A stretch of 64,000 nt of DNA from Prorocentrum cordatum (lineage: Eukaryota): positions 62,001-126,000 of the forward strand of contig CAUYUJ010000159.1 in NCBI GenBank assembly GCA_963575745.1, written 5' to 3'. A model generated the notes under the pieces. That model did not search any database. It was not told the origin of the DNA and worked only from the letters and a program-made list of their open reading frames with translations. This document shows, piece by piece, positions 12,742-64,000 of this stretch. Each line of letters starts with the position of its first letter. The stretch's first letter is position 1. Position numbers and translations under genes: made by a program.

Positions 12742-12763
12742 TTCGAGCCAAAATGGCAACAGA
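12742..12763 (-). other. Degenerate DinoSL relic marking the 5' end of the LINE-Dnmt
   Basis: Minus strand reads TCTGTTGCCATTTTGGCTCGAA versus the SL: 18/22 with a perfect GCCATTTTGGCTC core. Immediately outside it the sequence becomes purine-rich and (GCAG)n microsatellite. Confidence 0.75.
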
Positions 12764-21711: not shown

Positions 21712-22468
21712 GTTTCCCCAACCCTCCTGCGTTGGGTACTCGTTTTGAATAAAGCACTGCGGTCTCCACCTTCCTTCCTTCCTTCCCGCCCCCTCTCTTC
21801 CCTCTTCCTCTCCTCTCTTGCTTGCCTTCTCCTCCTCTCTTCGCTCCTCCTCTTCTCTTCTCTTGCCTTTCACGTCATCCCTGGCGGGCTGCGATCTGCG
21901 GAACTGTCACCACTTTCGAGGGCTGCTGGTGGGTCCAGCGGAGTGAGGCACCACGGGGACTCAGATTAGACCTCGCCATCCCTGGGGGGGGGGCTGCGAT
22001 CTGTGAAACTGTCGCCACTTTCGAGGGCTGCTGGTGGGTCCAGCGGAGTGAGGCACCACGGGGACTCAGATTAGACCTCGCCATCTCTGGGGGGGGCTGC
22101 GATCTGTGAAACTGTCACCACTTTCGAGGGCTGCTGGTGGGTCCAGCGGAGTGAGGCACCACGGGGACTCAGATTAGACCTCGCCATCTCTGGGGGGCTG
22201 CGATCTGTGAAACTGTCGCCACTTTCGAGGGTTGCTGGTGGGTCCAGCGGAGTGAGGCACCACGGGGACTCAGATTAGACCTCGCCATCCCTGTGTGAAA
22301 CTGTCGCCACTTTCGAGGCTGCTGGTGGGTCCAGCGGAGTGAGGCACCACGGGGACTCAGATTAGACCTCGCCACCCCTGGGCGGCTGCGATCTGTGAAA
22401 CTGTCGCCACTTTCGAGGGCTGCTGGTGGGTGGCCAGCGGAGTGAGGCACCACGGGGACTCAGATTCT
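21712..22468 (-). repeat. ~102-105-bp satellite array (about 6 units) with purine linker and conserved 3' hairpin module, copy A
   Basis: Units start at ~21888, 21993, 22096, 22197, 22295 (short) and 22385. Hairpin CCCAAC-8nt-GTTGGG at 21717-21736 is followed by TACTCGTTTTGAATA. Confidence 0.9.
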
Positions 22469-30900: not shown

Positions 30901-32023
30901 CGCGTAGCCTGGTATGGATGGGGATCCAGGCGCGCTCGACCCGCTGGCGTACCTCCTGGCTGCCTCTCCACACCTCGAACCAGTTCTTGAGGAGCGCCCG
31001 AGGGAGGCGCCGTGCGGGGTCAAGGGCTCCCGCGCGGAAAGCCAGCTGCGTGGTGAGGCACCTCCCACGCTTGACGGCGCCAGTGACTGACGCGAGCCGC
31101 CTTCGCAGCTCTGCCAGCCTGCTGCCGAAGGCGCCGAAGATCTCGAGGCCGTAGGTCGCTGCCGTCTGGAGTCCGACCTTCTCGACGAACCCGCACTTCA
31201 GGTACTGCCTTGACGCCTTGGCCATGCCTCGGAGCCGCTTGCTCGCTTGCCTCGTCTTGCCGAAGCGCTTCGAGATCGCGGGGAGCACTGGCCGTCTGCC
31301 CGCCGCAAGGTCGACTCCTAAGCACGTGCCGAAGGAGGAAGCCTGGACGATGAACCCGTGCTGCTTGACAATCTTGGCGACCTTGCGGGCGTCCTCCAGC
31401 TGCGAGCACACCACAACACTCTTGGGGGAGAGCGCCAAGCCCTCCTGCTGCACGCCCTGCCCGAAGTCGCGGATTCCCTGCGAGACGGCAGCGACCGCAG
31501 CGGGGCGAGGACCCACCGCGGAGAGGGAGAGGTCATCCACCCAGATCCGCGACGGCAAGAGCTGAGGCATCCCCTGCGGGGCCCCCGTGGCGAGCCGCTC
31601 CATGGTGAAGTACGTCATGCACCTGCCAAAGCGCGTGCCCGACCGCACTCCTTGGACGACCGACTGAGAGGGGATCACGATCCGCGAGGCCAAGCCGTCC
31701 TGCAGCAGGACGCGCCCCGCCATGCACTGCTGCAGCTCCAGGGCCAGGACGGCGGGCGGGAATCCGCGCCGAAGAGCGGCCCTGGCCAGCCCCGCCCACG
31801 GCATGCTGTCATAGAACTTCTGAATGTCCACCAAGCCGTGCGCGTAGGAAACGCCCATGGCCGCATAAGATTCCTCGCACACGGCCCTGGCGAAGGCCTC
31901 CCGCAGCGAGGAGTTGCCAGCCACGGCCGCATCCCACGCTGGGGCCGTGCGACGCGACCACTCTCGCATGGCGTCCTCCCTGACCATGCTCCAGCAGCGC
32001 GTGACCATGCTGAGGACGCCCAT
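27992..32023 (-). mobile_element. 5'-truncated LINE: RT, Zn knuckle, RNase H and Cys/His-rich C-terminus in one 1343-aa open frame
   Basis: RT: LVDIQKFYDSM, SVVQGVRSG, IWVDDLS, CLGVD. Zn knuckle: CPRCG...ETAYHRCWSC. RNase H: LFGDASGG, QTVHRGELRAL, YISDN, HVNSH, GNAVADVLA. Starts mid-RT against a (GAG)n tract. Confidence 0.9.
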
Positions 32024-32025
32024 GA

Positions 32026-32490
32026 AGCGGAGGAGGGCGAGGAAGAGGAGGAGGAGGAGGAAGAGGAGACGGAGGAGGAGGACTCACATGTTAGTGGCTG
32101 CGAGTGTTTCTGGGGAGCTGCTGGAAGAGCAAGAGGATGATAATGAGAAAGACGAGGAGGCGGAGGGGGAGGAGGACCACGACGACGATGACGAAGAAGA
32201 GGAGCAGGATAATGAGGAGGAGGAGGAGGAAGATGCTGCCACGACCTGGCCTCGAGACGGAGCAGGCTGGACCCGTGTCCGCTCCGCGACGCCCGCAAGG
32301 AATCTTTTCATTTGCATCGTCCCTCTCCTCCTCCTCCTCCTCCTCCTCCTCCTCCTCCTCCTCATCCTCCCCCTCCTCCTCCTCCTCCTCCTCCTCCTCC
32401 TCCTCCTCCAACTCCCCCTTCTCCTCCTCCCCCTTCCCCTCCCTCGCCTCCTCCTCCTCCTCCCCCTCCTGCTCCTTCTCCTCCTCCTCT
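32026..32490. repeat. (GAG)n tract and an opposing (CTC)n tract separated by ~90 bp of unique sequence
   Basis: Directly visible. Confidence 0.9.
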
Positions 32491-32999: not shown

Positions 33000-33980
33000 G
33001 CCTCCTCCTCCTCCTCCTCCTCCTCCGTCTCTTCCTGCTTCCCCCTCTTCCTCCTCCTCCTCCTCCTCCTCCTCCTCTTCCTCCTGCTCCCCCTTCTCCT
33101 CCTCCTCCTCCTCCGCCTCCTCCTTCTCCTCCTCTTCATCCTTGCCCTCCCCTTCCGCCTTCTGATCCTCCTCCTTGTCCGCCTCCTCCGCCTGCTGCTG
33201 CTTCTCCTCTTCCTGCTCATCCTCGTCATCTTCACCATCTGCCTCGTCCTACTCATCATCCTCCTCATATTCCTCCTCATCATCTTCCTATTCCTTCACA
33301 TCCTCCTCCTCCTCCCCCTTATCCTCCTCCTCATCCCTCCGCCTGCTGCTGCTTCTCCTCTTCCTCCTCCTCCTCCTCCTCCTCCTCCCTCCTCCTCCTC
33401 CTCCTCCTCCTCCTCCTCCCCTCTCTCCTCCCCCTCCCCCTCCCCTCCACCTCCTCCTCCTCCTCTCCTCCTCTTCCTCCTCCTCCTCCTCCTCCTCCTC
33501 TCCTCCCTCCTCCCCCTCCCCCCCCCCCCCCCCCCCCTCCTCTCCTCCCCATCCCCCTCCTCATCCTCCGCCTCCTCCTCCTTCTCGCATATTCCTCCTC
33601 CTCATCCGCCTCATCCTCATCCTCATTATCATCCCTCCTCCTCCTCTTCCTCCTCCTCCTCCTCCTGCTGCTCATTATCCTCCTCCCCATCCTCAACATC
33701 CCTCTCCTCCTCGTCCTCCTCCTCCTCCTCCTCTTTCTCTTCCGCCTCCTCCTCCTCCTCCTCCTACTCAATATCTTCATCATTATCCTCCTTCCTCTCC
33801 TCCCCCCTATTCCCCATCCTCCTCATCCTGATCCTCCTCCGCCTCCTCCTCCTCGCCCTCAAGTCCCAAGCATCCTTCTCGTCGTCGTCGTAATCCTCCT
33901 GCGCTCGTACCACGGCGAGCACGGTCTCATCCACTGCTACTGCTGCTGCTACTGCTAGAGCTACTGCTACTGCTGCTGCT
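33000..33980. repeat. (TCC)n-dominated microsatellite block ending in (CTG/CTA)n
   Basis: Directly visible. Confidence 0.95.
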
Positions 33981-36900
33981 CCCACTCCTGCACGGGCGGG
34001 GCTGCCTCGCAGAAGCCGCTGGACGGCTGGCGCGCGGGGTGGCCGCATGCGGGCGCGGCGCGGGCGCAGTACGATAGAGCGAAGAACGGAGTTGAGGAAG
34101 GAGGGCGAGGGGGGGCTTCCCAAGAGAGAGGGTGGGGCTCGACATGGGCAAGAGTAAAACAGTAAAAAGCAGAGACAATTACCTTCGAGGATTCTGCAGT
34201 GGGACGACGGAGGCCTAATCGGTGAATGGGGCATTCTGGAAACGGGCGGCCGTGAAACCCCTGTAATAACCCCGAAAACCGAGGACAGACAAGGTAGCGG
34301 CCCTGGGAGTCGCAACCAGCTGCGCGCTCAAACATGCATTTCTGACACTGCTGGAATCGCGATTGTGTGGTCCAGGCTCCAGCGAGTGTGTTCAGCACAG
34401 CTTGCCTCCGCGCTGGAGGAAGAGTCAATACCGCAGTCTTGACCTGCGGCCAACAGATCGCGCCCAACTGCCTTGGAGGAACATTGGGGAGGAGGTGGGC
34501 GAGACGGGCGCGGAGCGTCGGAGCGAGCGAGGGGGGGAAGATAGACGACTTGAGGCTCTCGGCAGCGGCGCGCTGGATCTTCTTGCCATCACGCTGGGCC
34601 CCCGGCGCGCGCTGTAAAGCGCGGCGGCCAGCCTTCGCAACGTGCGGATCGTTGCTGAATCCTGTCGACGCTGCATGCAAAGTGTCGCATATCGGGGGCT
34701 CTGTCCAGAATTCTGGGCAGCGACGGCCTTTTCTCATATCTTCAAGGGGGAGCTCGGTCCCCGCCTCCGAGAAACGAGCAACGCAAGACCGCCAAACCGA
34801 GAACGTGCTAATTGACGCTCGAATGAGCGTCGCCAGGTTGAGCACTAGAACACTTCTGAGGCGAGGGCCGCCCCAGCTTTCGAGAGAAAAGAACGCCTGG
34901 CGAGACAGCGAGCAGTGCGGCATCTTTAAAATCGAAGCGAAAAGCGCATGCTCTTTCGGAAGCACTGTCTTGGGAATCCGACAGAACTGAGCGATGTACC
35001 CCAAACAGGAGAGAGCACGCGAGTCGTATAGTGTGGTGGCGACAGCTGCGGGCGCTCCCGACTGGGCAATGCTGTTCGAGCGTTTCGCCCATTTGGCCAC
35101 GGGCGCATCCCAAGACGACGGGGGCGCAGCAGGGCCAAGAAAGACTCCTAAATAGAGCAGCTTGGGGACTATACATATATCTGTCCACTCGGGCAAGTGC
35201 TGATTGATCCAATTCTTATATGTCCAAGCGACTGCCTCCGAGAAGGGACCGCGTAAAGGCACTAGCTTACATTTACTCAGTTCGAGGGTTAGATTGGCCA
35301 CCCGTTTCGAAGCCCGAAAAACCGCATATAATTTTCTGAGGGCGGTCAGATCTCGAATCGCACTGCCTTTATCGTCCGCGCAGGCCCTCACGAGGCCCAA
35401 CTGCTTCTTCTCGGGGAGGGTTTCGAAGTGCTCGACGAAAGGATGAGACGCCACCGCATATAAGGCCCCGCTCGCTGGACACCCTTGGACAATCCCCGAC
35501 TCGACGAGGTAAAGGAAAACCATGCACTGCCCGAGCTGGCCGTAGCACGCGACCTGCGCGTAAATAAACTCCAGAAAATCGAAGAGGGGCTGGGGGGGGG
35601 TGAGCAATTTTAGGATGAGGAAGATCCAGCGCTGGGAGATGGAGGGGAAGGCCTGGCCGCAGTCGAAAGAGAGAAGAGCAGGGAGCCTGGAAGTGCATTC
35701 TGGCATCGTCGAAGTGATCCGAACCTCGGTATCGAGCTCAATTATGTTGTCCCCGAAGTTTCGCTTCGGCACGAAGCCCCTCTGAGCCTGATTTATGAAT
35801 CCTGGGAGAGCCCGCGTCTGAGGCTGCATGGCCACCGAGGTTGAGATCTTGCAGTCTGTGTTCTTTAATCCCAGGGGGCGGGTTCCACTGGCATCTCGGA
35901 TCACTTTGTCACTGTCCTCGGGCTCGGAGCCCTTGACCAAGAAAGCGCCAAGCATCTGGTTGAAACCGAAGAGGGGAGGGTTGCCTGCCAGGTTCCAGTC
36001 CAACGTGCTGCACAAAACCTTCGGGCCCGCGGTGTGATATTTCCAGGCCCAATATGGCAGGCCATCTGGCCCAGGAGCGCTCGGCGAAACTCTGTCCAGG
36101 AAACGAGCAATACTAGCTTCCGAGGGTGGCGGCGGCCCTGAAAGATCGACGCTTGGCTTGAACCTCTGGGCGCACTGGAGGGCGGCAGGCTTGTCGACCT
36201 CCGACTTCGCAAAAACTGGACCCCAATGCTGAGCCAGACCTGACAAAATCTCGTTCGGCTTCGAGGTGACCGTGTCCTGGGCCGCCCTGAGGCCCTGCAG
36301 TGGGAGCTTTCTGTTCGAATGGAGACCAAAGACGAGCCCGGACCTGGAGGCTTTTGAGGCGCTTGGCGAATTTGGTCTGCTTGTGCCGAGTGGAACATTG
36401 CCAAGTTGGCCTCGTTCGCCTCAGCGTGCAAGCTGATCGGGTCAGTGATGCTCACGCTCTGCTGCTGAACATCTAGGCTGATAAACTTGCGGCCGAAGGG
36501 GTGCGACAAGACAATGCGCCTGGCCAGCACCATATCCTGATTCCAGACTGCTCTGGCACTAGTGCGGCACGCATCATAACGAGAGAGAGGATCGTGAGGT
36601 TTACAAGTGAGAAGCCGATTACGTGCGTGACGTGCAGCTTCGAACATAAGTTCCTTGCGAAAGAGGAGTCGGAGAGGTGGAGAGAGAACACTATCGTCTA
36701 TCTGTGCCAGCACGGACTCAATAAACTGCTGGTACTCGCGTCGCTTGAAGATATCTTGATGGATTCGTCGGTCCTTTGGCGGAGTCTGGGAGCGAGGTGT
36801 GAGGATCACGCTGATCGCAGCGTGGTCGGGCAGCTTTGTCTTAGCAAGCACCTCGGGGTATCCGTGGACGCGAGCACCCGTGCACATCTGGGTGATGCAC

Positions 36901-52847: not shown

Positions 52848-53014
52848 GGAACGGGGATCGCGGCGACGAGGGGCGCCTACTTGCTCCGCAATATTGAACC
52901 AATGTTGTTACTGACGATGACGATGACGATGATGATGCTCACGACGACGGTGGGGACGATGTCGACCACGACCGTTGATCAAGTACTACAGCCGTGTGGT
53001 CGGAAAAGTAATCG

Positions 53015-53167
53015 TACTAGTAGCAGTAGCAGTAGCAGTAGCAGTAGTAGTAATAGTAGTAGTAGTAGTAGTAATAGTAGTAGTAGTAGTAATAGTAGTA
53101 GTAGTAGTAGTAGTAATAGTAGTAGTAGTAGTAGTAGTAGGAGTAGTAGTAGTAGTAGTAATAATAA

Positions 53168-53198
<31 letters not shown>

Positions 53199-53546
53199 CG
53201 TTGTAGTAGTACAGGAAGTCGTACTAGTAGTAGTAGTTGTAGTTGTGGTCGTAGTCGTAGTGGTAGTATTCGTGGTGATGGTGGTAGTAGTAGTGTTAGT
53301 ATTAGTGGTAGTAGCAGTACCAGTAGTGGCAGTCGTAGTAGTGATAGTACGAGGACTATGTCGTAGTCGTTGTTTTTGTCGCTGTCGTTGTCGTAGTAGC
53401 AGTAGCAGTAGTAGAACATGTAGTAGTGGTAGTCGCCGTCGTACAAGTGGTACTACGAGAAGTAGTTTTGGTAGTAGTGGTAGTACTAGTAGTAGTAGTA
53501 GTAGTAGTGGTAGTAGTAGTTGTTGTTGTGGTAGTAGTAGTGGTAA

Positions 53547-53579
<33 letters not shown>

Positions 53580-53737
53580 CCAACGTCGAAGTCGAAGTCG
53601 AAGCCGACGTCGTAGTAACAAGTCGTCGTAGCAGTAGCAGTGGTAGTAGTAGGAGTCATGGTAGTAGTCGTTCTAGTCGTTGTAGTCGAAGTCGTACTCG
53701 CAGTAGTAACAGTAGTAGTAGTAGTAGTAGTAGTAGC

Positions 53738-53773
<36 letters not shown>

Positions 53774-54032
53774 TGCAGTACTACGAGTAGTCCTCGTAGT
53801 AGTCGCAGTAGTAGTTGTAGTAGTAGAAGTACTAGAGTTGGTGGTCGTGGTGAGGGTGGTGGTGGTTGGTGATAGTCGTAGTCGTTGCAGTAGTGGTAGC
53901 AGCAGCAGCAGTAGTAGTAGTAGTAGTACAAATCGCAGTAAACGCAGTAGTAGTGGTAGTAGTAGGGATAGTGGTAGCCGTAGTAGTCGTTGTAGTAATA
54001 GCAATAGTCGTAATAGTACGTGTAGTAGTAGC

Positions 54033-54067
<35 letters not shown>

Positions 54068-54224
54068 TGGTAGTGGTAGTGGTAGGGTAGTGGTGGTAGT
54101 AAAAGACGGGGTAGAGTTATAAGTACTAGTAGTAGTAGTAGTAGTAGTAGTAGGAGTAGTAGTAGTAGTCGTAGTAGTAGTAGTCGTAGTAGTAGTAGTA
54201 GTCGTAGTAGTAGTAGTAGTCGCC

Positions 54225-54267
<43 letters not shown>

Positions 54268-54343
54268 ACGTAGTAGTAGTAGTAGTAGTAGTAGTAGTCG
54301 TAGTAGTCGTAGTAGTTAGTAGTAGTAGTAGTAGTAGCAGTAA

Positions 54344-54377
<34 letters not shown>

Positions 54378-54490
54378 CGTAGTAGTAGTAGTAGTAGTAG
54401 TAGTCGCCGTAGTAGTAGTAGTAGTAGACGTAGTAGTAGTAGTAGTAGTAGTAGTCGTAGTAGTCGTAGTAGTAGTAGTAGTAGCAGTAA

Positions 54491-54538
<48 letters not shown>

Positions 54539-54552
54539 TCGTAGTAGTAGTC

Positions 54553-54585
<33 letters not shown>

Positions 54586-54760
54586 TGGAATCGTACTATT
54601 AGTAGCAGAAGTAATAGCAGTAATAGCTGTAGTAATACTAGTCGTAGCAGTTGTTGTTGTGGTCGCCGGCGTCGCCGTCGCCGTCGCCGTCGTAGTAGTA
54701 GCAGTCGGTGCAGTAGTAATAATAGTCGCAGAAGTAGTAATAGTTGTAGTACTCGTAGTC

Positions 54761-54796
<36 letters not shown>

Positions 54797-55044
54797 ATAG
54801 CAGTCGTAGTAGTAGTACCAGGAGTCGTAGTAGTCGTCGTCGTAGTAGTAGTAGTAGTAGTAGTAGCCGTAGTACTAGTAGTAGAAATAGTAGTGGTCGT
54901 AGTGATCGTAATAGTATTAGTCGTATCAGTCGTATTAGTAGTAGTAATAGTAATAGTAGTAGTAGTAGTAGCAGTAGTAGTAGCAGTAGTAGTAGTAGTA
55001 ATAGTAGTAGTGGTCGTCGTCGTCGTAGTAGTGGTAGTACCAGC

Positions 55045-55077
<33 letters not shown>

Positions 55078-55078
55078 C

Positions 55079-55120
<42 letters not shown>

Positions 55121-55323
55121 GTAAACGCAGTGGTATTAGTCGTAGTAGTAGTAGTAGTAGTAGCAGAAGTAGTAGTAGCAGTAGTAGTAATAGTAGTAGT
55201 AGTAGTACTAGTACTAGAGGTGACAGGAGTGGTAGTAGTAGTAGTAGGCGTCGCCGCCGTAGTAGTAATACTGGTCGGAGTAGTAGTAGTAGTACTAGTA
55301 GTAGTAGTAGTAGTAGTAGTAGA

Positions 55324-55361
<38 letters not shown>

Positions 55362-55520
55362 TAGTAGTAATAGTAGTCGTAGTAGTAGTAATAGTAGTAA
55401 CCGTAGTAGAAGTAGTCGTAATAGTAAGAGTAACAGTAACAGCAGTTGTATCAATCGTAATTAGCAGTAGGAGTAATCATAGTATTCGTAGTTCGCAATC
55501 GCAGTGGCAACCGTAGTCGC
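53015..55520. repeat. ~2.5-kb degenerate (TAG)n microsatellite
   Basis: Directly visible. Confidence 0.97.
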
Positions 55521-56379
55521 GATGAAGAGACGCCAAACAGGAAGGTCTGGTGGAGAAAGGGGTGGGCAGGAGAAGAAGGACCGCCACGACCACCACCTCA
55601 CGTTGAAAACAAGGTCTCGGGGTAGCAAACCGAAGGTTCGAAACGCATATGATGCTTGAGAAGCGCGTGCAGGTTGGAGTTCATGTTGAATTGCGCATGT
55701 CCCATATTCAAAGAATGTTCCTTGGAATTGAGGAGGGGCCATAACTGGTTCATAGGTGCGCAGCAGGCACAGGTTTCAGAGGAATTTATTTGGATTCGAA
55801 TGCGCACCAAATAGGAATTCAATAAACATGATCCTGTGCTCAAAATATCTCGGATGGGATTTGCATGAATTATCGGAAGGGTTCAGATAGGAATGGGACA
55901 GGCCCCTCGGTCAGAGGATTCCGATTGAATTCGCGCGGAACCATCGGAGGAATTCAACAGGGATTGGGCAATAACAAACGGATTGCGAGTAGATTGGAAT
56001 TTGGACCTGGTGGGAATTCGGTAGGTCTAGAACAGATCCCAGATTCAGACGATTCTTTGGATTTGCATCGGAGCCTGATGGGAATTCGGTAGAGATTTAG
56101 ACGACCGAGATCAATCACATGTTTTTGATTTGAAACCAAAGAACTCGCAGGAAACGAACAGGATTGGGACATGCCCCAGGAACGCGTTTCTTTATCATCG
56201 GCCATGACGGTCGTCATGGGGGGGGGGGAGGGGGGGCATGACGTGACGCCCCCCCCCCCACCGTGCGGCTCGAGCACCGCAGTCGCGCCCGCGCGCGCGA
56301 CGACGACGATCGACGAGCGACGAGCGGCGAGGACGAGGACGAGGACGATGCGAGCAGCATGTAAGTGGCGACCTGCCCC

Positions 56380-56459
56380 ACCGCGCCTGTGTGCACCACA
56401 GCAGTCGCGTGCACCGCAGCACTTGTGTACACCACAGCGCCTGCGTACACCGCAACAGC
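56380..56459 (+). repeat. 18/21-bp GTGTACACCACAGCGCCT satellite, left part
   Basis: Same repeat family as 63754-63975. Confidence 0.8.
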
Positions 56460-57225
56460 AGTTTTTTCTTTTTCCCAACCCTCCTTGGTTGGGTATTCGT
56501 TTTGAATAGAGCAGTGTGGTCGCGTCTCCTCCCGCCTCCCTCCTGCCTCCTGCCTGCCTCCTCCTGTCTTGCCTGCGGGGGGCTGCGATCTGCGAAACTG
56601 TCGCCACTTTCGAGGCCTGCTGGGGGGCCCAGCGCAGTGAGGGCCACGGGCGGACCCAAATTAGACCTCGCCATCCCTGGGGGGCTGCGGCCTGCGAAAC
56701 TGTCGCCATTTTCGAGGCCTGCTGGGGGGGGCAGCACAGTGAGGGCCACGGGCGGACCCAAATTAGACCTCGCCATCCCTGGGGGGCTGCGATCTGTGAA
56801 ACTGTCGCCACTTTCGAGGCCTGCTGGGGGGCCCAACACAGCGAGGGCCACGGGCGGACCCAAATTAGACCTCGCCATCCCTGGGGGGCCGCGATCTGCG
56901 AAACTGTCGCCATTTTCGAGGCCTGCTGGGGGGCCCAGCACAGTGAGGGCCACGGGCGGACCCAAATTAGACCTCGCCGTCCCTGGGGGGCTGCGATCTG
57001 CGAAATTGTCGCCATTTTCGAAGCCTGCTGGGGGGCCCAGCACAGTGATGCCACGCGCGGACCCAAATTAGACCTCGCCGTCCCTGGGGGGGCTGCGATC
57101 TGTGAACCTGTCGCCACTTTCGAGGCCTGCTGGGGGGCCCAGCACAGTGACGCGCTACGCGGATCCACAATAGACCTCGCCGCAGACTCGAGTTAGACCT
57201 CGCCATCTCTCGGGGGCTGCGGCAT
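56460..57225 (-). repeat. ~102-bp satellite array (about 6.5 units) with purine linker, 3' hairpin and A-rich tail, copy B
   Basis: Units at ~56582, 56684, 56786, 56888, 56990 and 57092. Hairpin CCCAACC-CTCCTT-GGTTGGG at 56474-56493. T-rich tract at 56462-56473. Confidence 0.9.
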
Positions 57226-57532
57226 GAGATCCCCGCTTTCGAAGTGGCCAGGGGTGCTCAGGGATTGTAACTAATCAGCTTTATCTAGTTTTTGTCCTGT
57301 AGCCAGTGTCCTGCGAGTCTCCCGAATTCCGCCTGCAGACATATGTAGCCCTCGCTCCGTCACCGCCCCCCTTATAAAGTGTCCTAAACTATTTGCGCCC
57401 CGCGTTTGCGCAGGGGTTGGGTGCGTCGCCAGGGCAATTGTCTTCTTATTCTTCTTCTTCTTCTTCTTCTTCTTCCTTCCCCCCTCTTCCCATTTTTGCC
57501 TGCGCGGCGGGCAGGCGGGGGGGCCCCAAGAG

Positions 57533-60500
57533 TCAGCCCCCCCTGTCTGTGCGGCGCTTCTCGGCCCTCGGCGAAAGATCAAGGCTCGGCGCCGCGGAAG
57601 GCAAGGCGGCCTGCGCTGAGGCCACCGAGCTCGAGAGGCCAGCCACCTCTCCAGCTGCAGCGTCGGGGAGGCGCGCACCGCTGGCCGGGCGCACCCCTCG
57701 GCGAATTCTGTCGCCCCTGAGGCGGCGGATGCGGCCTGCATCCCCTTCGTCTGGGACGCGCATGCTCGAGAGCGCCTTGAAGGAGCCAAGGCGCTCGCGC
57801 GCGCACGCGTTGCACCTATTGCAAACGACGCAGCCGCGGCGCCGCTGCAGCACATGCCCGAGCTCGTCGCGCGCAGAGGACAGAGCGGGCGGCACAGCGG
57901 GGGCCGAGGGAGCCGCCCCCTCGGCAGACTCGTCGGCGGGAACCAAAGGCGCACTGGCTACGCCGAGCTCTGCGCGCTCAAGAGGGGGCCGCGACCTGTC
58001 GCCGCTGCCTCCGACGGCGCCAGCGCGAGAACGGTCCGCCCTGCGCCCCCTCCAAGCAGCCATGAGGGGGTCAGCGGCACTCGAAGGCTGGCGCCCCTCA
58101 GCGGCGGGCCTCACACTGGAGCCCGCGGGGGGCCCACGAGGCCTGCGAGGCGCTCGGCGGGCGGGGCCGCTCGCGGCGGCGGTGCTGCCGGTGTCGCCGC
58201 CGCCGCCCTCGGCGCTGCCACCTCCACCGTGTCCCCCAGCAGTGGCAGCCGCGATGGCGGCTGCCGCCAACGCAGCGCCCGCAGCAGCGCTGGAGGCGGG
58301 GGCCCGCGTGGCCCCTGAGGCCACCGCCTTGGACTTGCAAGGGCCCCTGAAGAGCACCTGCTTGGACTTCTCGGTGCGCGCCGTCTTGAGGCGCGCCTGG
58401 CAGCGCCACGAGCCGTCGGCCTGCGTCGCGAAGACATGGCTCGTGAGGCTAAGGCCGATGCGGTTGCCGACGTCGCGCTGCACGTAGCCCTGAGCGCCGT
58501 CGCCCCAGGCGGCCCCCGCTGGCGTGCCGGCCTTGGCCAGCCAGCGCGCAACACCGTCCACAATGACGACAGCCTGCTTGCACCTCAAACTTGCCTCGGG
58601 AGGGGGTCCGAGCGCCGCGGCGATGCCACCTGCCACGAGGTCCACCTCGAAGTTGCCGCGCCTCTGCTTGAGCGCGATGGCGCCCTCTCGAACTTGGCGA
58701 AGGGGCGCGTGGCCAGGCACCTTGACCACCGTGAGGCCGCGGTCCGAGAGGCCGCCGAAGCCGTCGAGGGCCGCCCGCGCCATCCGCCACAGGCGCCCCC
58801 ACGCGGAGGATGCGAGGGTGGCGCGCTCGGCCCCGCCGTCCACCACGAAACTGGCGTCGCAGTGCAGGACAATGGGCGGGATGGAGCGCCGCAGCACGAT
58901 GAGCACCGACAGCAGCTCCGAGCCCTCGATGCTCTGCCACGGGCCGACGAGCGGCGACCCAAGCGCCTTGGTCCTGCTGCCAGGCCCTGGGTCGGCGTTG
59001 TCGCTGACGGGCGGCAGCTCGACCACCGCCGCTGCGCCTTGGGCGCCCCGCCCACCAGCAAGCGCGGCGCCGTGCAGGGCGCCGTCGCAGTGCAGGGGCT
59101 GGCCGCAGAAGGGCTCGCCTGGCTCGCCGCGGCACCAGCGCAGGTGGTCCAGGAATCCGCCTGCAGGCGGCCGCCGCTGCATCCAAGGGATCGGGAAAAG
59201 CAGCCTCTCGACGAGCATCCTGATCACCTGGTTGTCGCGCTGCGCCAGCAGGAGCGCCATCTCCCGCGGCAAATCGCCTCCATCAGGTAGACGAGTGAGG
59301 GCCTGGCACTCGAGATGCCTGTGCCAGAGGTCGCCCCGCTGCCCTGGGCAGAGCTCGCAGAAGTCCGAGGAGGCATACCTCGGGTTGTTGCCGAACTTCC
59401 TGACGTTGGTCCACTGGCCGCTCACGATGCACGACCTGAGGTAGCCGCGCTCCTCGTTGGTGGCGGTGGGCCAGCTCCTGCCCACCTTCGAGGAGGGTCG
59501 TCCTCGGTCGACCCACTTCCGCATCTGCCCGAAGTTGATGCCGACGGCCAGCCAAGGGGCGTCGTGCTCGCTCAGCTGGCGGGCCTGCCAGTCCTCGCAG
59601 CTGCGCCGAAGAAGCTTCTTGGTCATCCACGGGCTGGTGTCGCCGATGCAGTGGGCGTCGCCCGCGTCGGAAGTCCACTTGCCCAGCTGCTCGCACTGCC
59701 ATCCGACGCGCCGCAGGGAGAGGGCGGCGGCGGAGATGGGCCCGCGGGCCTGACTCCACTGGCCGACGTGGCGGACTGCAGCTGCAGAGGCCGTCTCCAG
59801 TGCCTTCTTGGGCAGCCACTGCTCCCAGACGGCTCGGTGCAGCGTGCTGATGGGGTCGAGCGTGGCCTTGACGATGGGGTCGTAGTCGGCTCCGATGAGG
59901 GCCAGGGCCGCGGTGGCGCTCTTACCCGCGGGCCGCAGCTCGATGGCCTTCACGGCCATGGTTCTGGCCAGCTGGAGCTCGGCGTCGCTCAGGCCCGTGC
60001 GGCAAACCCCGTAGGCGTAGCTGGCCTCCAGCCCCTGCTTCGCCACGCGGGCTGCGATCCTGCGGCGGCAAGCGGGGCCGAGGAGGCGGCGAAGCCTCGG
60101 CACTCGCCGCGAAGCCTGCTTGAGCCGCCCCTTGCGCACGTTCCTGGGCATCTTGATGCCGACGGCGAAGTCCACGCCCAGGTTGCGAGCTCCTCGAACC
60201 GCGCGCGCCTTGGTAGACGCGGCCAGCCTGCCCTCGAGGTCCTTGGCCAACTGCGGCGAGTCGACGAGGAGCACCGACTTCTTGGTAGCCACGAAGATGT
60301 CCACCTTGCGCAGCTCCTTGGCCACGCTGGTGACGCTGGCCACGATGGAGTCGGCCACCCGCATGCCGCCCCCGACCCGCTGGAAGACTAGGTCGTCGAC
60401 GACGACCGACGGCGCGATGCTCGGCGACGCGCGGACCGCGCGGTCGAGCGGCGTGAGCAGGATCAGCTTCATGAGCGTGGTGGCCCACATGTCGCCTGCC

Positions 60501-62580
60501 AGGACCGTCTGGCCCGCCTCGATGAAGTCCGAGGCGGCTCCGCGGAGCTCGAGGGCCCGCGGAGCTCGGTACAGCGAAATCTGGAGCTTGACTACCCAGA
60601 GGGGGAAGTCGTGCTCGGCCGCCGAGGTGCTGGTGCCCGATCTGCTCGAAGGCCTTCCATAGGTCCAATCCAGGTCGGGCTGCTCGTCGCGCTTGGCCTT
60701 CAGCCACTCACTCCATACAAGCTGCTGCCATACAGCTCGCTCACAGGACTTGCCTGCCGTAGCCCGCCAGAAGGCCCGCGGGTGAACGGCCTCCCAGTCA
60801 CGGGCGAGGCCGCGGCGAAGGCGCCCGTGCACGCGCACGAGAGCCGCGAGGAGGGCGATCGGCCTGACGCCGCCCCCCCGCCTGGCAATGCAGACCAGCT
60901 TCGTGATGAAGTTGGACCAGCAGCACTCGAGCTCGACCCTCTCCAGGGGGGCTGCGATGGCCCCCACGCCGTCGCCGCCAAGGGCGTCGAAGTGGCGCGG
61001 GCAAAAGGCGTCGAAAGAAGTGTCCGTGGTCTGCGAGAAGGGCGTGAAGACCTTGCGCAACTCCGCGACGGTGGGGCGCGGCGGCCTGGCGCCGGGGCCT
61101 CCATCAGGCCAGGCCAGATCTGCCGTCGCCCTCCCAATGTTCCAGTGGCGCGACCACTCCTCGACGAGAAGCTGCACCGCCTGCATCTGGCCTGCTGTCG
61201 TCGGGACGGGTTTGCCCTCCGCCCCGCTGCCGCCGTCGGCGCAAGTGGGGCTTGGATGCCACTGCGCGGGCTCCTTGGTGAAGGCGCGCAGCGCGCTGCC
61301 TCCAAGCAAGGCCTGCTACTCGATCCAATCGCCGAACCTGGACTTGGCCCGCCTGATCGCGGAGGCGGCGAACATGTCGCCCACGTCGTCCACCAGCACC
61401 GCGACAGCGCGGAGGGCGGCGCTCGGCAGGTAGTCGAAGGCGCTGCACAGGAGGGCAAGCGCGTTGCCGAGACGGCTCTGCTGCTGGCCTCCGTCGGCGT
61501 GCTGGACGCAGCGGTGCCAGGCGCGCCGCGGGCGGTTGATCTGCTGCCGTCCACGCCCATGGGCACCGATGACGTCCAGGGATGAGGCGTTCTTGGCGAC
61601 CATGGACCACTGCTTGACCCAGCACGTTTGGATGTCCAGCCTGGGGCAGCGCGGCATCTTGGGCACGCTGGCGCGAATCCAGTGGAGCATGGGAGGGGCC
61701 GCTCGCCCCCTGTAGAGGTCGCCGTGCTCGTTGAGGCCGCAGCGGTCAATCAGCTCGTCCTCAGCGACACTGATGATGGCTTGCCACGCGTCGTCGACGG
61801 TGGGGGCGCGCGGCGCGGCTGGCTGCGCGGCGGCCCAGGCTGGGCCGAAGTCCTGGGGGCAGCAGCCAGTCGGCAGCGGCCGCGGGAAGGGCTTGGGCGA
61901 CTGCATCACCTGCACCCAAGGCCGCACCTGGCCCGTGATCACCTCGAGCAAGACAGGTCGGTGAGGGCCGAAATCCCAGTCCTGGAGGGTCGTGGCCTCG
62001 GCCGCCGCGAAGCAGGAGGAGACCGCGAAGTAGTCCAGCACGCGCTCGGCGGGTCGGCAAGTGCCGCTCGCAGGAGCGACGGTGTAGCCGCCCAGCTGCG
62101 CGAGCCATGGGGCCTGGGCAAGGTCGGCGGGCTCCATGTTGAAGTCTCCGCAAATGATGAACGGCGGGCCGACCACCAGGACCGCTCTCCGCACGGCCTC
62201 CAGTATAGCCATGTTGGCGGCCGACAGCCCCTCGCCCGTATGCAGGTGTTGACCCACGAGATCCCGCCTCGCATGAAGCCGCCGTGGCGCAGGATGGCGG
62301 CGCGGCCAGGGACGAGGAATGGGGGCGGCCCCATGCCGCCTGGGGGCCAGGCAGTGCAGGCCGCCGTGGCCAGGCTTGCCGCCCTCCGCGTCGGTGGCGG
62401 CGCACGCGAGGGCATGCCAGCCCAGGCGGTCGAAGGCCGCGCTAGCCTCGGCTGCGCGCGGCGCGGAGAGGTGCGTCTCCTGGACGGCGACGAAGTCACA
62501 GCTGACGAGCTCGTCCGTGCCCACGAAGCCCATGAATGTGGAGTGGGCGTTCGGGTTGATGGTGAGCCCGCGCCAAAGCG
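57533..62580 (-). pseudogene. LINE ORF2 (APE-RT-RNase H) with an in-frame TAG at 61316-61318 and local frameshifts
   Basis: APE: LTINPN, VQETHL, GDFNMEP, LDYFAV, PHRPV. RT: RPIALL, LDLWKAFE (only in a shifted frame, ~60640-60675), VLAGDMWA, VVDDL, RNLGVD. RNase H: HCDGA, QSIEGSELL, LHCDA, VKVPGH, GNFEVDLVA. Confidence 0.9.
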
Positions 62581-62937
62581 CGCATGCAGCTGCACCAGCA
62601 GCCCTGCAACTACCCCTTGGGGGTCCATCGACCCGCAGCTTCTTGTCGACGTGCTCGCGGGGGCAGCTGAGGGCGGTGGCCAGGCGCTTGGGCTCAGTGT
62701 CGCCAGCGCACACCATATACAGGCCACCAGGATCCGACTCGCAAAGGCTGCAGGGTGACCATGCTGTCGGGCGGGGGCGGCGCCTCGACGGTGACGCCCA
62801 TGGGGCCAGCACCTGCGGGGCCGCCTGCCCCGCATGCTGGGGCCGCTGGAGCTGCCGCCGCCGCTGCAGCTGCAGGCGGAGGCGGCGGCGCCGCCGCCTT
62901 TGACCAGTTCGATAACCTCTGCGAGCAGGTCCTGCGG

Positions 62938-63588
62938 CTACTTCTCGGCAACGTCGACGGCCGAGAGCTTATCCAGGAGGCTGGCGGCGGGCACGACCTC
63001 TGGCACGACGAAGACCTTGGCCGCGGCAGCCCTGGCCTCCTCGCGCTCTGCCTCGATGGCCTTGCACTTGCGCTGCGCCTCCTCGAGCGCCAGCATCGCC
63101 TTGACCGCGGCTGCCGCCAGGCGCTGCACGGTCTTGGCGGCCTCGAACGCCCGCTGGTCGACGCGCTTGAAGTTCTGAGTGGCCTCGTGCGCTGCGAAGG
63201 CCCCGCAGGCGCCAGGCCCGCCTGCGGCGACGGCGCGGCGCGCGTCGACCTTGGCGACCGTGGCCTTCGCGAGCACCTTGCGGTACTCTGCCCAGGCCTC
63301 GTCGCTGAGCGCCGCAGCCTGCTCGATGGCCTTCTCGTCCAGCTTGGGCCAGAAGGTGGCCTCCTGGGTGGGCTGCTGGCCGTTGGCGCCCTTGGGCCCC
63401 GTGCGCAGCCAAGGCGGGGCGCCGCCGCCGCCTTGCCCGCGCCCACTGACACCTGGGCCCTTGCGGTCACGCCCGCCGCCGCCACTCTGGCCCTGCCAGC
63501 GCCGCTGCTTGCTGCGCCGACAGAAGGCACACGCCTGCAGTTTGAAGGGGTTGTAGCCGCCGCACCCGCACAGCCAGTAGGAAGACAT
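62938..63588 (-). CDS. LINE ORF1 with an N-terminal RanBP2-type zinc finger and a coiled coil
   Basis: WLCGCGGYNPFKLQACAFC fits W-x-C-x(1,4)-C-x3-N-x6-C-x2-C. It is followed by a Gly-rich segment and an Ala/Glu/Lys-rich helical region. Confidence 0.7.
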   Translation of the reverse strand: MSSYWLCGCGGYNPFKLQACAFCRRSKQRRWQGQSGGGGRDRKGPGVSGRGQGGGGAPPWLRTGPKGANGQQPTQEATFWPKLDEKAIEQAAALSDEAWAEYRKVLAKATVAKVDARRAVAAGGPGACGAFAAHEATQNFKRVDQRAFEAAKTVQRLAAAAVKAMLALEEAQRKCKAIEAEREEARAAAAKVFVVPEVVPAASLLDKLSAVDVAEK

Positions 63589-63731
63589 CGCTGGCCAAAT
63601 ATCTCCAACTGCTGGGGGCGAGAGAGCAGCGACTTCTGCTCGGCAGCGCGCAGCTCGACCGAGGATGGAAAGCCAACAGGGTACGTCCGCGGACTAGCGG
63701 TGTCCACGCCGCCTCTCGGGAGACGTGGCAT

Positions 63732-63753
63732 CTTGAGCCAAAATGGCTACGGA
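63732..63753 (-). other. Perfect dinoflagellate spliced leader (TCCGTAGCCATTTTGGCTCAAG) fused to the LINE 5' end
   Basis: 22/22 match to DCCGTAGCCATTTTGGCTCAAG. It is followed by ATGCC rather than a GT donor, so it is not an SL RNA gene. Confidence 0.97.
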
Positions 63754-63975
63754 CACCGCAACAGCCGTGTGCAACGCAGCGCCTGTGTACACCACAGTGT
63801 TTGCGTGCACCACAACGCCGGTGTACACCACAGCGAATGTGTACACCGCAACAGCCATGTGCAACACAGCGCCTGTCCACACCACGATGCTTACGTGCAC
63901 CGCAGCGCCTGTGCACACCACAGCGCCTGTCTACTCCACAGCATCCGCGTGCAACGCAGCGTTCGTGCACACCTG
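63754..63975 (+). repeat. 18/21-bp GTGTACACCACAGCGCCT satellite, right part
   Basis: About 11 degenerate tandem units. Confidence 0.85.
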
Positions 63976-64000
63976 CGTGCGCATGACAGGTAGAAGAAAC

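What the first reader, a model, noticed from the sequence alone, without database searches (positions are those of the whole stretch)
63588..63765. A full-length autonomous-type LINE begins exactly at a perfect spliced leader
Seen: the LINE 5' boundary coincides with nucleotide 1 of a 22/22 DinoSL. Satellite DNA lies immediately outside, a ~143-nt UTR and ORF1 lie inside, and there is no GT donor after the SL. Established: dinoflagellate mRNAs receive this SL by trans-splicing, and relic SLs mark retroposed host genes. Inference: the LINE RNA is itself trans-spliced, which cuts a capped unit-length RNA out of read-through transcription, and is then copied to the very 5' end. Trans-splicing would thus do the job that an internal promoter or 5' ribozyme does in other LINEs, and the SL's terminal AG could act as the acceptor for the next round.
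Basis: partly seen in the sequence, partly recalled or inferred. Interest (0 to 1): 0.9.

Follow-up and report, generated by a model that had tools for sequence, protein, structure and literature searches.

The report
LINE retrotransposon capped by spliced leader
A nearly intact jumping gene (LINE) in a dinoflagellate genome begins exactly with the 22-base leader that these algae splice onto their messenger RNAs, which shows that the element's RNA was trans-spliced and then copied back into DNA right to its tip.

Summary
A perfect DinoSL lies on the minus strand at 63753-63732, with none expected by chance.

It is the first sequence of a 7.29-kb insert (63753 to 56460) in an 18-nt/90-nt satellite. 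The insert is bracketed by a 13-nt duplication and ends in an A-rich tail. Removing it restores the satellite in phase, and contigs from other runs show that uninterrupted form.

The insert encodes ORF1 and one 1811-codon ORF2 frame with a single TAG. ORF2 has an APE nuclease domain and an RT/RNase H part homologous to RVT_1-bearing proteins.

So the SL belongs to the element and not to the target. It was joined at the exon end, with no SL-intron bases.

A second, unrelated and fully intact LINE (L014/L140) also starts at the SL, inside a (GA)n repeat.

The idea that trans-splicing replaces an internal promoter, and that the SL's last AG is reused as acceptor, fits two of two cases but is untested. 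I reached no RNA data and no other 5' ends of this family.

I rate it a new variant of SL-tagged retroposition. Interest 0.65.

The parts
63754..64000 (.). 5'-flanking satellite (18-nt unit, 90-nt higher-order period); it runs to the window's end
   Evidence: TRF rows with periods 18, 54 and 90; 90-nt rows printed in register
63753..63765 (-). 5' copy of the 13-nt target-site duplication GCTGTTGCGGTGT; its last T (63753) could equally be SL base 1
   Evidence: Exact copies only at 63843-63855, 63753-63765 and 56447-56459; once per 90-nt unit plus the extra copy after the tail
63732..63753 (-). DinoSL, 22/22 (TCCGTAGCCATTTTGGCTCAAG), first bases of the element
   Evidence: 0 matches in 100 shuffles
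63589..63731 (-). 143-nt 5' UTR. It starts with an ATG that opens a 345-aa R/S/P-rich frame overlapping ORF1, judged spurious from its composition.
   Evidence: no Rfam family at E<=1; shares nothing but the SL with the 5' UTR of the second LINE
62938..63588 (-). ORF1, 216 aa: N-terminal W-x-C-x-C-x3-N-x6-C-x2-C motif (RanBP2-finger-like, read by eye), then a helix-prone A/E/K-rich part
   Evidence: no Pfam hit at E<=0.01 and no zinc-finger hit at E<=1; no relatives found
57533..62968 (-). ORF2 reading frame, 1811 codons, open except for one TAG; first ATG at 62716
   Evidence: Frame map and translation
62087..62506 (-). APE-type endonuclease domain of ORF2
   Evidence: Pfam Exo_endo_phos, E 6.8e-6, 26.4 bits against cut-off 24.5, residues 71-210 of the 466-aa piece
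61316..61318 (-). The single in-frame stop (TAG) in ORF2
60089..60901 (-). Reverse-transcriptase core (RPI..., VVDD, NLGVD motifs, read by eye)
   Evidence: No direct Pfam RVT_1 hit. 1957 relatives at E<=1e-3. Of 8 relatives scanned, 7 hit RVT_1 at E<=0.001 (4 above Pfam's cut-off), 2 hit RNase_H and 1 hit Exo_endo_phos. The catalytic DD is invariant in alignment A1.
57441..57475 (-). (GAA)n run in the 3' UTR. Summed contig depth in other runs steps up about 150-fold 3' of it.
56577..57181 (-). 5.9 copies of a 102-bp tandem repeat inside the 3' part of the insert
   Evidence: a second array with the same end segment lies at 21713-22466
56460..56576 (-). GA-rich stretch, roughly 50-nt end segment, and A-rich tail (A5 G A6 C T, 56473-56460)
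   Evidence: the end segment is 86.5% identical to 21713-21764, after which the two loci diverge
56447..56459 (-). 3' copy of the 13-nt duplication
56378..56446 (.). 3'-flanking satellite, in phase with the 5' flank once the insert is removed
   Evidence: Contigs in runs X1 (4), X3 (1) and X4 (2) join 56446 to 63753 with 13 shared letters (table 5).

Best explanation
Shown, about 0.9 confidence:
- On the minus strand, 63753 to 56460 is one retrotransposed unit of an APE-type non-LTR retrotransposon: SL, 143-nt UTR, ORF1, ORF2 (APE-RT-CCHC-RNase H) and a roughly 1-kb repeat-rich 3' part with an A-rich tail.
- It was inserted into a satellite by target-primed reverse transcription, which left a 13-nt duplication.
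- Its template RNA carried the trans-spliced DinoSL at its 5' end, joined at the normal exon end. The reverse transcriptase copied it to SL base 1 or 2.
- The same holds for a second, unrelated and intact LINE from another source (L014/L140).

Inferred, about 0.45 confidence:
- This is how such LINEs normally obtain their RNA. A new copy has no promoter of its own, is transcribed by read-through from neighbouring DNA, and SL trans-splicing cuts out and caps a unit-length mRNA.
- Every master copy is itself a retrocopy, yet both LINEs carry exactly one complete SL and no relic. The acceptor used each round would therefore be the AG that ends the DNA-encoded SL, so the 5' end is rebuilt exactly.

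Corollary, inferred: this LINE machinery can copy SL-capped RNAs end to end, so it is a candidate maker of the SL-tagged retrogenes of dinoflagellates.
For: - SL 22/22, none expected by chance.
- No GT follows the SL, whereas SL RNA genes fetched here continue with GTAC.
- The 13-mer abuts both the SL and the tail. It occurs exactly 3 times in the window: two copies 90 nt apart in the 5' flank, and the third, extra copy abutting the tail.
- With the insert removed, the satellite is in perfect 90-nt register.
- Contigs in 3 of the 4 runs laid join 56446 to 63753 with 13 shared letters.
- The A-rich tail lies directly before the 3' duplication.
- APE domain. ORF2 is a single frame with one TAG.
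- ORF2 relatives carry RVT_1, RNase_H and Exo_endo_phos. The catalytic DD is conserved.
- The self-comparison found no direct repeat between the element's two ends other than the flanking satellite, so no LTRs.
- No ribozyme or other Rfam family at E<=1.
- Second case, L014/L140: (GA)n-type repeat, then SL bases 2-22, 93-nt UTR, ORF1 with a Pfam RanBP zinc finger (1.4e-7), a 2536-codon ORF2 without a stop carrying Exo_endo_phos (5.1e-9) and RVT_1 (4.5e-11), a 31-nt 3' UTR, A6, then (GA)n again.
- The two 5' UTRs share only the SL.
- Neither LINE has a relic after the SL. Relics do occur in the same data set (L012).
Against: - Only two LINE 5' ends were seen, and the second was found by scanning for the SL. 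No frequency can be given.
- No RNA run holds the stretch, so the SL-to-63731 joint has not been seen in RNA.
- No other 5' end of this family could be fetched.
- In a 90-nt periodic array, a 77-nt target deletion would give the same flanks as a 13-nt duplication. The 13-nt overlap lies in the usual duplication range, which about 1 in 6 random offsets would also do (my estimate).
- SL base 1 is ambiguous with the flank in the window, and it is absent or C in L014.
- The window's ORF2 gets no direct Pfam RVT_1 hit and has a stop, so this copy is not itself autonomous.
- The 3' 1 kb has a far higher summed depth than the body in other runs. It may be a transduced or shared module and not the LINE's own end.
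- The absence of a relic may simply mean a master with a native acceptor.
Confidence: 0.6

Rival explanations
1. The SL is incidental. The family has its own (internal or upstream) promoter, or most copies are dead on arrival. [quoted passage not shown]
For: Trans-splicing of dinoflagellate mRNAs and SL relics on retrocopies are established (passages in PMC12014239, PMC7245778). Only 2 LINE 5' ends were seen, one by a biased search. This copy has a stop in ORF2.
Against: Two unrelated LINE families, one fully intact, both begin at the SL. An element with an internal promoter would start its RNA at its own first base, and its full-length copies would then have no SL. Both UTRs are short and share nothing but the SL.
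Confidence: 0.25
2. The DNA-encoded SL is a fixed 5' module. It was captured once and is now transcribed from its first base, driven by an internal promoter or by the T-rich SL itself. The RNA therefore mimics a trans-spliced mRNA without being spliced each round.
For: A passage in Song 2017 (PMC5585692) proposes that the TTTT/TTTG motifs of the SL may act as a core promoter for retrogenes. AT-rich giant-virus-bin contigs carry 129 DNA-encoded SLs directly ahead of ORFs, so encoded leaders are used elsewhere. A passage in PMC9651163 says an RNA virus carries a DinoSL and that this was read as mimicry.
Against: The viral SLs sit behind a conserved AT-rich motif that a LINE cannot carry along; here the flank is a satellite or a (GA)n run. 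A promoter lying downstream of the start would have to place initiation exactly at SL base 1 in two families whose UTRs share nothing.
Confidence: 0.08
3. Template switch. The reverse transcriptase reached the 5' end of an uncapped or unspliced LINE RNA and jumped onto free SL RNA, as in U6-L1 chimeras (recalled).
For: SL RNA is abundant in the nucleus. LINE enzymes are known to switch templates (recalled, not tested here).
Against: The joint is exactly at the SL exon end in both LINEs, with no intron bases. A jump onto the SL RNA would start within or at the end of its intron part.
Confidence: 0.03
4. The SL was already at the target (an SL gene array or an older relic), and the LINE inserted next to it, as SLACS, CZAR and NeSL do.
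For: Site-specific LINEs of SL genes exist (recalled). SL RNA genes form arrays in dinoflagellates (passage in PMC8045281).
Against: The SL lies inside the 13-nt duplication. The satellite's other units have no SL. The uninterrupted satellite form in other runs has none. No 5S or other RNA gene is nearby. The nuclease is APE-type. L014 sits in a different repeat.
Confidence: 0.02
5. Assembly artefact: a cDNA or chimeric read joined to satellite DNA.
For: Repeats invite misassembly. The S. mansoni authors raise this doubt for their own cases (PMC5832876 passage).
Against: Both junctions are coherent (duplication, tail, satellite phase). An independent assembly gives the same architecture for another LINE.
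Confidence: 0.02

Closest known systems
SL-tagged retrogenes of dinoflagellates ('mRNA recycling', relic DinoSL). Slamovits and Keeling 2008 is cited in the passages read; Song 2017 (PMC5585692), PMC6050394 and PMC12014239 were read as passages.
   Same: A DNA copy of a trans-spliced RNA that keeps the DinoSL at its 5' end. Song 2017 reports the GO term 'RNA-dependent DNA replication' enriched among SL-tagged retrogenes, so RT-coding models with SL relics are implicitly in print.
   Different: Here the copied RNA is the retrotransposon's own full-length bicistronic mRNA. The ends are resolved (duplication, A-rich tail), which points to a LINE-type insertion mechanism. The SL is complete and single. 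The passages read say that the enzyme behind retroposition is unknown, and PMC6050394 favours LTR elements.
SL-containing (retro)transposon gene models in Schistosoma mansoni (Boroni 2018, PMC5832876, passages)
   Same: An SL sequence is found in genomic copies of mobile elements, with the suggestion that they are trans-spliced, retro-transcribed elements.
   Different: That case concerns another phylum and another SL. The SL lies inside gene bodies, no ends or duplications were resolved, and the authors themselves allow for misassembly.
L1Tc/ingi of trypanosomatids: Pr77 internal promoter plus HDV-like ribozyme (PMC1874656, PMC3383444, PMC3185411; abstract starts seen)
   Same: An APE-type LINE in an organism whose mRNAs are SL trans-spliced. 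Both face the same problem of making a defined 5' end out of polycistronic or read-through transcription.
   Different: By those abstracts, L1Tc solves it with its own promoter and ribozyme and makes unspliced transcripts. Here there is no ribozyme hit and the 5' end is the SL itself.
SLACS, CZAR and NeSL: LINEs specific for SL RNA genes (recalled, not read here)
   Same: A LINE lies next to an SL sequence.
   Different: Those elements insert into SL genes, interrupt the SL exon, and use a restriction-like nuclease. Here the SL is inside the element, the target is a satellite, and the nuclease is APE-type.

Membership tests
APE-type non-LTR retrotransposon (LINE) | Reverse transcriptase with a catalytic Asp-Asp | tested here: met
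   There is no direct Pfam RVT_1 hit. However, 1957 relatives were found at E<=1e-3. Of 8 relatives scanned, 7 hit RVT_1 at E<=0.001, 4 of them above Pfam's cut-off. D307 and D308 are invariant in A1.
APE-type non-LTR retrotransposon (LINE) | N-terminal apurinic-like endonuclease in ORF2 | tested here: met
   Exo_endo_phos, E 6.8e-6, 26.4 bits, above the 24.5 cut-off
APE-type non-LTR retrotransposon (LINE) | Target-site duplication and an A-rich or simple-repeat 3' end; no LTRs | tested here: met
   13-nt duplication and an A-rich tail. The self-comparison shows no terminal direct repeats apart from the flanking satellite. Caveat: in a periodic array, a 77-nt target deletion would look the same.
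APE-type non-LTR retrotransposon (LINE) | Intact coding capacity (autonomy) | tested here: not met
   There is one in-frame TAG at 61318-61316. The second LINE (L014/L140) is intact.
SL-tagged retrocopy (relic DinoSL class) | DinoSL encoded in DNA at the 5' end of the copied unit, joined at the exon end with no SL intron | tested here: met
   22/22 SL followed by ATGCC. SL genes fetched for comparison continue with GTAC.
SL-tagged retrocopy (relic DinoSL class) | Transcript of the locus carries a new SL ahead of the relic | not testable with these tools
   No RNA holder was listed
SL-gene-specific LINEs (SLACS/CZAR/NeSL) | Insertion into an SL RNA gene; SL exon belongs to the target | tested here: not met
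   The SL lies inside the duplication, the target is a satellite without an SL, and no RNA gene was found
LINEs with a 5' HDV-like ribozyme (L1Tc, R2, RTE types) | Self-cleaving ribozyme at the 5' end | tested here: not met
   No Rfam family at E<=1 on either strand of 56300-64000. A divergent ribozyme could escape this search.

The most novel reading that the evidence does not exclude
Dinoflagellate LINEs are promoter-less parasites of the host's SL trans-splicing. Any read-through transcript that crosses a copy is cut and capped at the AG ending the copy's own DNA-encoded SL, so each generation rebuilds exactly one SL. The same machinery, which favours simple repeats as targets, makes the thousands of SL-tagged retrogenes of these genomes.
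Probability: 0.35. Interest if true: 0.85.

Novelty: new variant of a known kind. Interest (0 to 1): 0.65.

Why it matters
**The open question.** Passages in the dinoflagellate retrogene literature say it is unknown which enzyme makes the many SL-tagged retrogenes. One review leans towards LTR elements (PMC6050394; PMC5585692).

**What this adds.** Here a LINE's own RNA, SL included, has been inserted with the marks of target-primed reverse transcription. A second, intact LINE shows the same. That gives a concrete candidate engine and a simple test: look for duplications, A-tails and simple-repeat targets at retrogenes.

**A new solution to the LINE 5'-end problem.** Other LINEs solve it with internal promoters or ribozymes. 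Here the element may borrow the host's trans-splicing instead. This can be tested with SL-selected RNA data and a genome-wide census of 5' ends.

**Limits.** Trans-splicing of the template RNA is what known biology predicts, and RT-coding models with SL relics are implicitly in print.

Tried and rejected
- **Whole genome of the window:** none is held.
- **Earlier findings of this scan:** nothing relevant.
- **Protein searches across the 5' end:** no hit at E<=1e-3 with ORF1, with the antisense frame that reads through the SL, or with the SL-to-ORF1 frame of L014. Each search covered only proteins of similar length.
- **Metagenome scan with ORF1:** one locus, L001. It is a bacterial contig with no SL, so a chance match.
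- **Viral-contig scans with three LINE proteins:** nothing.
- **Alignment A1** was too divergent for locus scans.
- **Sequencing runs:** no RNA holder was listed. The four runs laid are contigs, and no listed piece bridges the SL junction. The raised depth in bin 63496-63752 in X1 and X3 is probably the SL word itself; I did not verify this.
- **Other contigs of the genomes holding L002 and L014:** RT pieces only, no 5' ends.
- **Cluster names and the protein Atlas** were unavailable.
- **PDB sequence search of the RT part:** no hit.
- **Other RT elements in the window** (27995-32083, 33970-36420) do not give usable 5' ends.
- **Nested-insertion reading** (LINE ends at the (GAA)n run, and the 3' kb is an older element): rejected, because only the composite is bracketed by the duplication.
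- **Literature:** searches, and the passages read, gave no description of SL-capped LINE copies in dinoflagellates. I did not open any supplementary tables. Those of Song 2017 may list RT-coding retrogenes.

Full report
**1. The observation**

The window's last 7.6 kb was read on both strands.

- The 21 defined bases of the dinoflagellate spliced leader match exactly on the minus strand at 63752-63732. Base 63753 supplies T at the variable first position, so the match is 22/22.
- It is the only match in the window at up to 3 mismatches, and none of 100 shuffles gave one.
- ATGCC follows the SL, not GT. Real SL RNA genes fetched later continue with GTAC (L007, L008, L013, L019).
- The next 143 bases lead to the ATG of a 216-aa ORF1 at 63588.
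- On the element's strand, upstream of the SL lies a satellite with an 18-nt unit and a 90-nt higher-order period.

**2. What the element is**

In the element's own orientation, one frame is open from base 786 to base 6218 apart from a single TAG at 61318-61316. ORF2 is therefore one 1811-codon frame, not two genes.

- Its N-terminal part hits Pfam Exo_endo_phos (E 6.8e-6, above the cut-off).
- The rest gets no direct RVT_1 hit and no PDB sequence hit.
- An exhaustive HMMER search found 1957 relatives at E<=1e-3, 110 of them at E<=1e-30.
- I scanned 8 of these relatives. Seven hit RVT_1 at E<=0.001 (4 above Pfam's cut-off), 2 hit RNase_H and 1 hit Exo_endo_phos.
- The catalytic DD is invariant in a 17-sequence alignment.
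- Read by eye, ORF2 also has a CCHC motif and an RNase H-like part, and ORF1 starts with a RanBP2-finger-like motif. Pfam does not confirm the ORF1 motif.
- A self-comparison shows no terminal direct repeats other than the satellite.

This is an APE-type LINE that is nearly, but not quite, intact.

**3. The ends**

The same satellite reappears at 56460-56378, just after an A-rich tail.

- The 13-mer GCTGTTGCGGTGT occurs exactly three times in the window. Two copies lie 90 nt apart in the 5' flank, the second abutting the SL. The third abuts the tail.
- If 56447-63752 is taken out, the satellite reads on in perfect 90-nt register.
- In Logan contigs of other runs, pieces join 56446 directly to 63753 with 13 shared letters (X1: 4 contigs; X3: 1; X4: 2; none listed for X2, table 5). 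The satellite is multi-copy, so these need not come from the same locus. They do show that the uninterrupted form has no SL.

The simplest reading is a 7.29-kb insertion with a 13-nt target-site duplication.

Caveat: in a 90-nt periodic array, a 77-nt target deletion would give the same picture. A 13-nt overlap lies in the usual duplication range, which roughly one random offset in six would also do (my estimate). On either reading, the SL is the first sequence of the insert and is not part of the target.

**4. The 3' part**

After ORF2 come a (GAA)n run, a unique stretch, 5.9 copies of a 102-bp repeat, a GA-rich stretch and a roughly 50-nt end segment.

- A second array with the same end segment lies at 21713-22466. 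The two loci diverge right after it.
- In other runs, summed contig depth is about 150-fold higher 3' of the (GAA)n run than in the LINE body. Depth is not copy number.
- Only the composite is bracketed by the duplication, so the template RNA ran through to 56460.

Whether this last kilobase is the LINE's own 3' UTR shared with a non-autonomous family, or a 3' transduction, is open.

**5. How the SL got there**

The SL is joined at the exact exon end. That is what trans-splicing gives, and it is not what a jump of the enzyme onto free SL RNA would give. The template was therefore a trans-spliced LINE RNA, copied to SL base 1 or 2. Base 1 is ambiguous with the duplication. No Rfam family, and hence no known 5' ribozyme, was found at E<=1.

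**6. Is it a one-off?**

I could not reach other copies of this family.

- No genome is held.
- The single metagenome scan gave only a chance bacterial hit.
- Protein searches across the 5' end were blank.
- No RNA run was listed.

Instead I scanned two collections for the exact SL 21-mer. It occurs in 20 stretches of prokaryote-labelled genome contigs and 119 stretches of viral contigs, which makes 156 distinct occurrences.

A tblastn search and an HMM built from A1 found one LINE among these loci, L014. I completed it with L140 from the same contig. Its layout is:

| Feature | Detail |
|---|---|
| 5' flank | (AGAGAGAC)n/(GA)n repeat |
| SL | bases 2-22, at 117-137 |
| 5' UTR | 93 nt |
| ORF1 | 370 aa, Pfam RanBP zinc finger, E 1.4e-7 |
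| ORF2 | 2536 codons, no stop; Exo_endo_phos 5.1e-9, RVT_1 4.5e-11 |
| 3' UTR and tail | 31 nt, then A6 |
| 3' flank | (GA)n again |

Its RT is about 28% identical to relatives of the window's ORF2. Its ORF1 does not align with the window's ORF1. The two 5' UTRs share nothing but the SL.

So a second, intact and unrelated LINE from another source has the same 5' start and also sits in a simple repeat. This search was conditioned on the SL, so it shows recurrence and not frequency. In L002, L005 and L016, other SL-tagged units also have a microsatellite directly before the SL.

**7. Mechanism**

Shown:
- The template RNA was trans-spliced.
- It was reverse-transcribed over its full length.
- The ends are those of a LINE-type insertion.

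Inferred:
- A new copy lands without a promoter and depends on read-through transcription and SL trans-splicing to make a capped, unit-length mRNA.
- Every master is itself a retrocopy, and both LINEs carry one complete SL and no relic, while relics do occur in the same data (L012). The acceptor would then be the AG that ends the encoded SL.

I put the core at about 0.9 and this life-cycle reading at about 0.45. The rivals are:
- an incidental SL on an element that has its own promoter;
- an encoded leader transcribed from its first base;
- a template switch onto free SL RNA;
- a pre-existing SL at the target;
- misassembly.

**8. What is known**

I read passages only, not whole papers.

- Relic SLs mark retrogenes (PMC12014239, PMC7245778).
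- Song 2017 finds 'RNA-dependent DNA replication' enriched among SL-tagged retrogenes and says the responsible enzyme is unknown.
- A 2018 review favours LTR elements as the source of that enzyme (PMC6050394).
- In Schistosoma mansoni, six SL-containing (retro)transposon models were tentatively read as trans-spliced, retro-transcribed elements, with a caution about misassembly (PMC5832876).
- L1Tc of trypanosomes uses an internal promoter and a ribozyme and makes unspliced RNA (abstract starts).
- Searches listed no paper describing SL-capped LINE copies with resolved ends in dinoflagellates. I did not open any supplementary tables.

**9. Verdict**

This is a new variant of SL-tagged retroposition in which the retrotransposon itself is the copied RNA, with a testable and still unproven idea about how it is expressed. 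Interest 0.65.

Noticed in passing
L021-L139 (viral contigs; mostly giant-virus MAG bins, GC 0.16-0.26): The AT-rich contigs carry 129 distinct exact DinoSL copies. 125 are preceded by A, giving a full 22-nt SL, usually behind a conserved AT-rich motif (for example ...AAATATAAATTTTA or ...CTAGTA). 123 are followed within 220 nt by an ATG-started open frame, at a median distance of 51 nt, on both strands. This looks like genome-encoded SL leaders on viral genes. Searches listed no paper on it; the passages read report only an RNA-virus case.
   Followed up: partly
L087 1-5319: The contig begins with the DinoSL (minus strand), followed by a 759-aa ORF with Pfam viral RdRP_1 (E 4.5e-7). It resembles the SL-bearing +ssRNA virus of Symbiodinium mentioned in PMC9651163.
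   Followed up: partly
L002 1-60, L005 1-52, L016 1-56, L014 1-137: In four GC-rich SL-bearing contigs, the SL is directly preceded by a microsatellite: TG-rich, (CAT)n, (GACA)n and (GA)n. With the satellite target in the window, this hints at a simple-repeat target preference of the retroposition machinery.
   Followed up: partly
window 12742-12762, minus strand: A degenerate SL-like word: the 15-mer matches with 2 mismatches (0.13 expected), and by eye 4 of the 6 upstream bases also fit the SL. It lies behind a CT-rich stretch and about 140 nt ahead of an ATG. It is possibly an old relic of a retrocopy.
   Followed up: no
window 27995-32083 and 33970-36420, minus strand: There are two more RT-coding stretches. 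One is a 1363-codon open frame with LINE-like RT similarity (tblastn to relatives, E down to 6e-18). The other is an 817-codon frame with Pfam RVT_1 (6.1e-9) that the LINE queries do not hit. No SL lies nearby at up to 3 mismatches.
   Followed up: partly
window 21713-22466: A second array of the 102-bp repeat has the same roughly 50-nt end segment as the LINE's 3' end (81-87% identity). The repeat has very high summed depth in other runs. It is possibly a non-autonomous partner or a 5'-truncated copy.
   Followed up: partly
window 53014-55426: A 2.4-kb run of a 3-nt repeat (consensus GTA, 802 copies, 74% matches) lies about 1 kb beyond the element's 3' flank.
   Followed up: no
L012 (last 60 bases), L044 8001-8121, L084 3907-3976: L012 has an SL followed by two tandem relics. 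In two viral-bin loci, SLs recur at about 50-nt spacing with the same intervening 29 nt.
   Followed up: no
L009 7980-8045: In a 209-kb contig labelled Rhodospirillaceae, the SL 21-mer sits between two copies of a 19-nt word (TTTTGCTTGCAGGCGTGAG). This is unexplained and may be an artefact.
   Followed up: no
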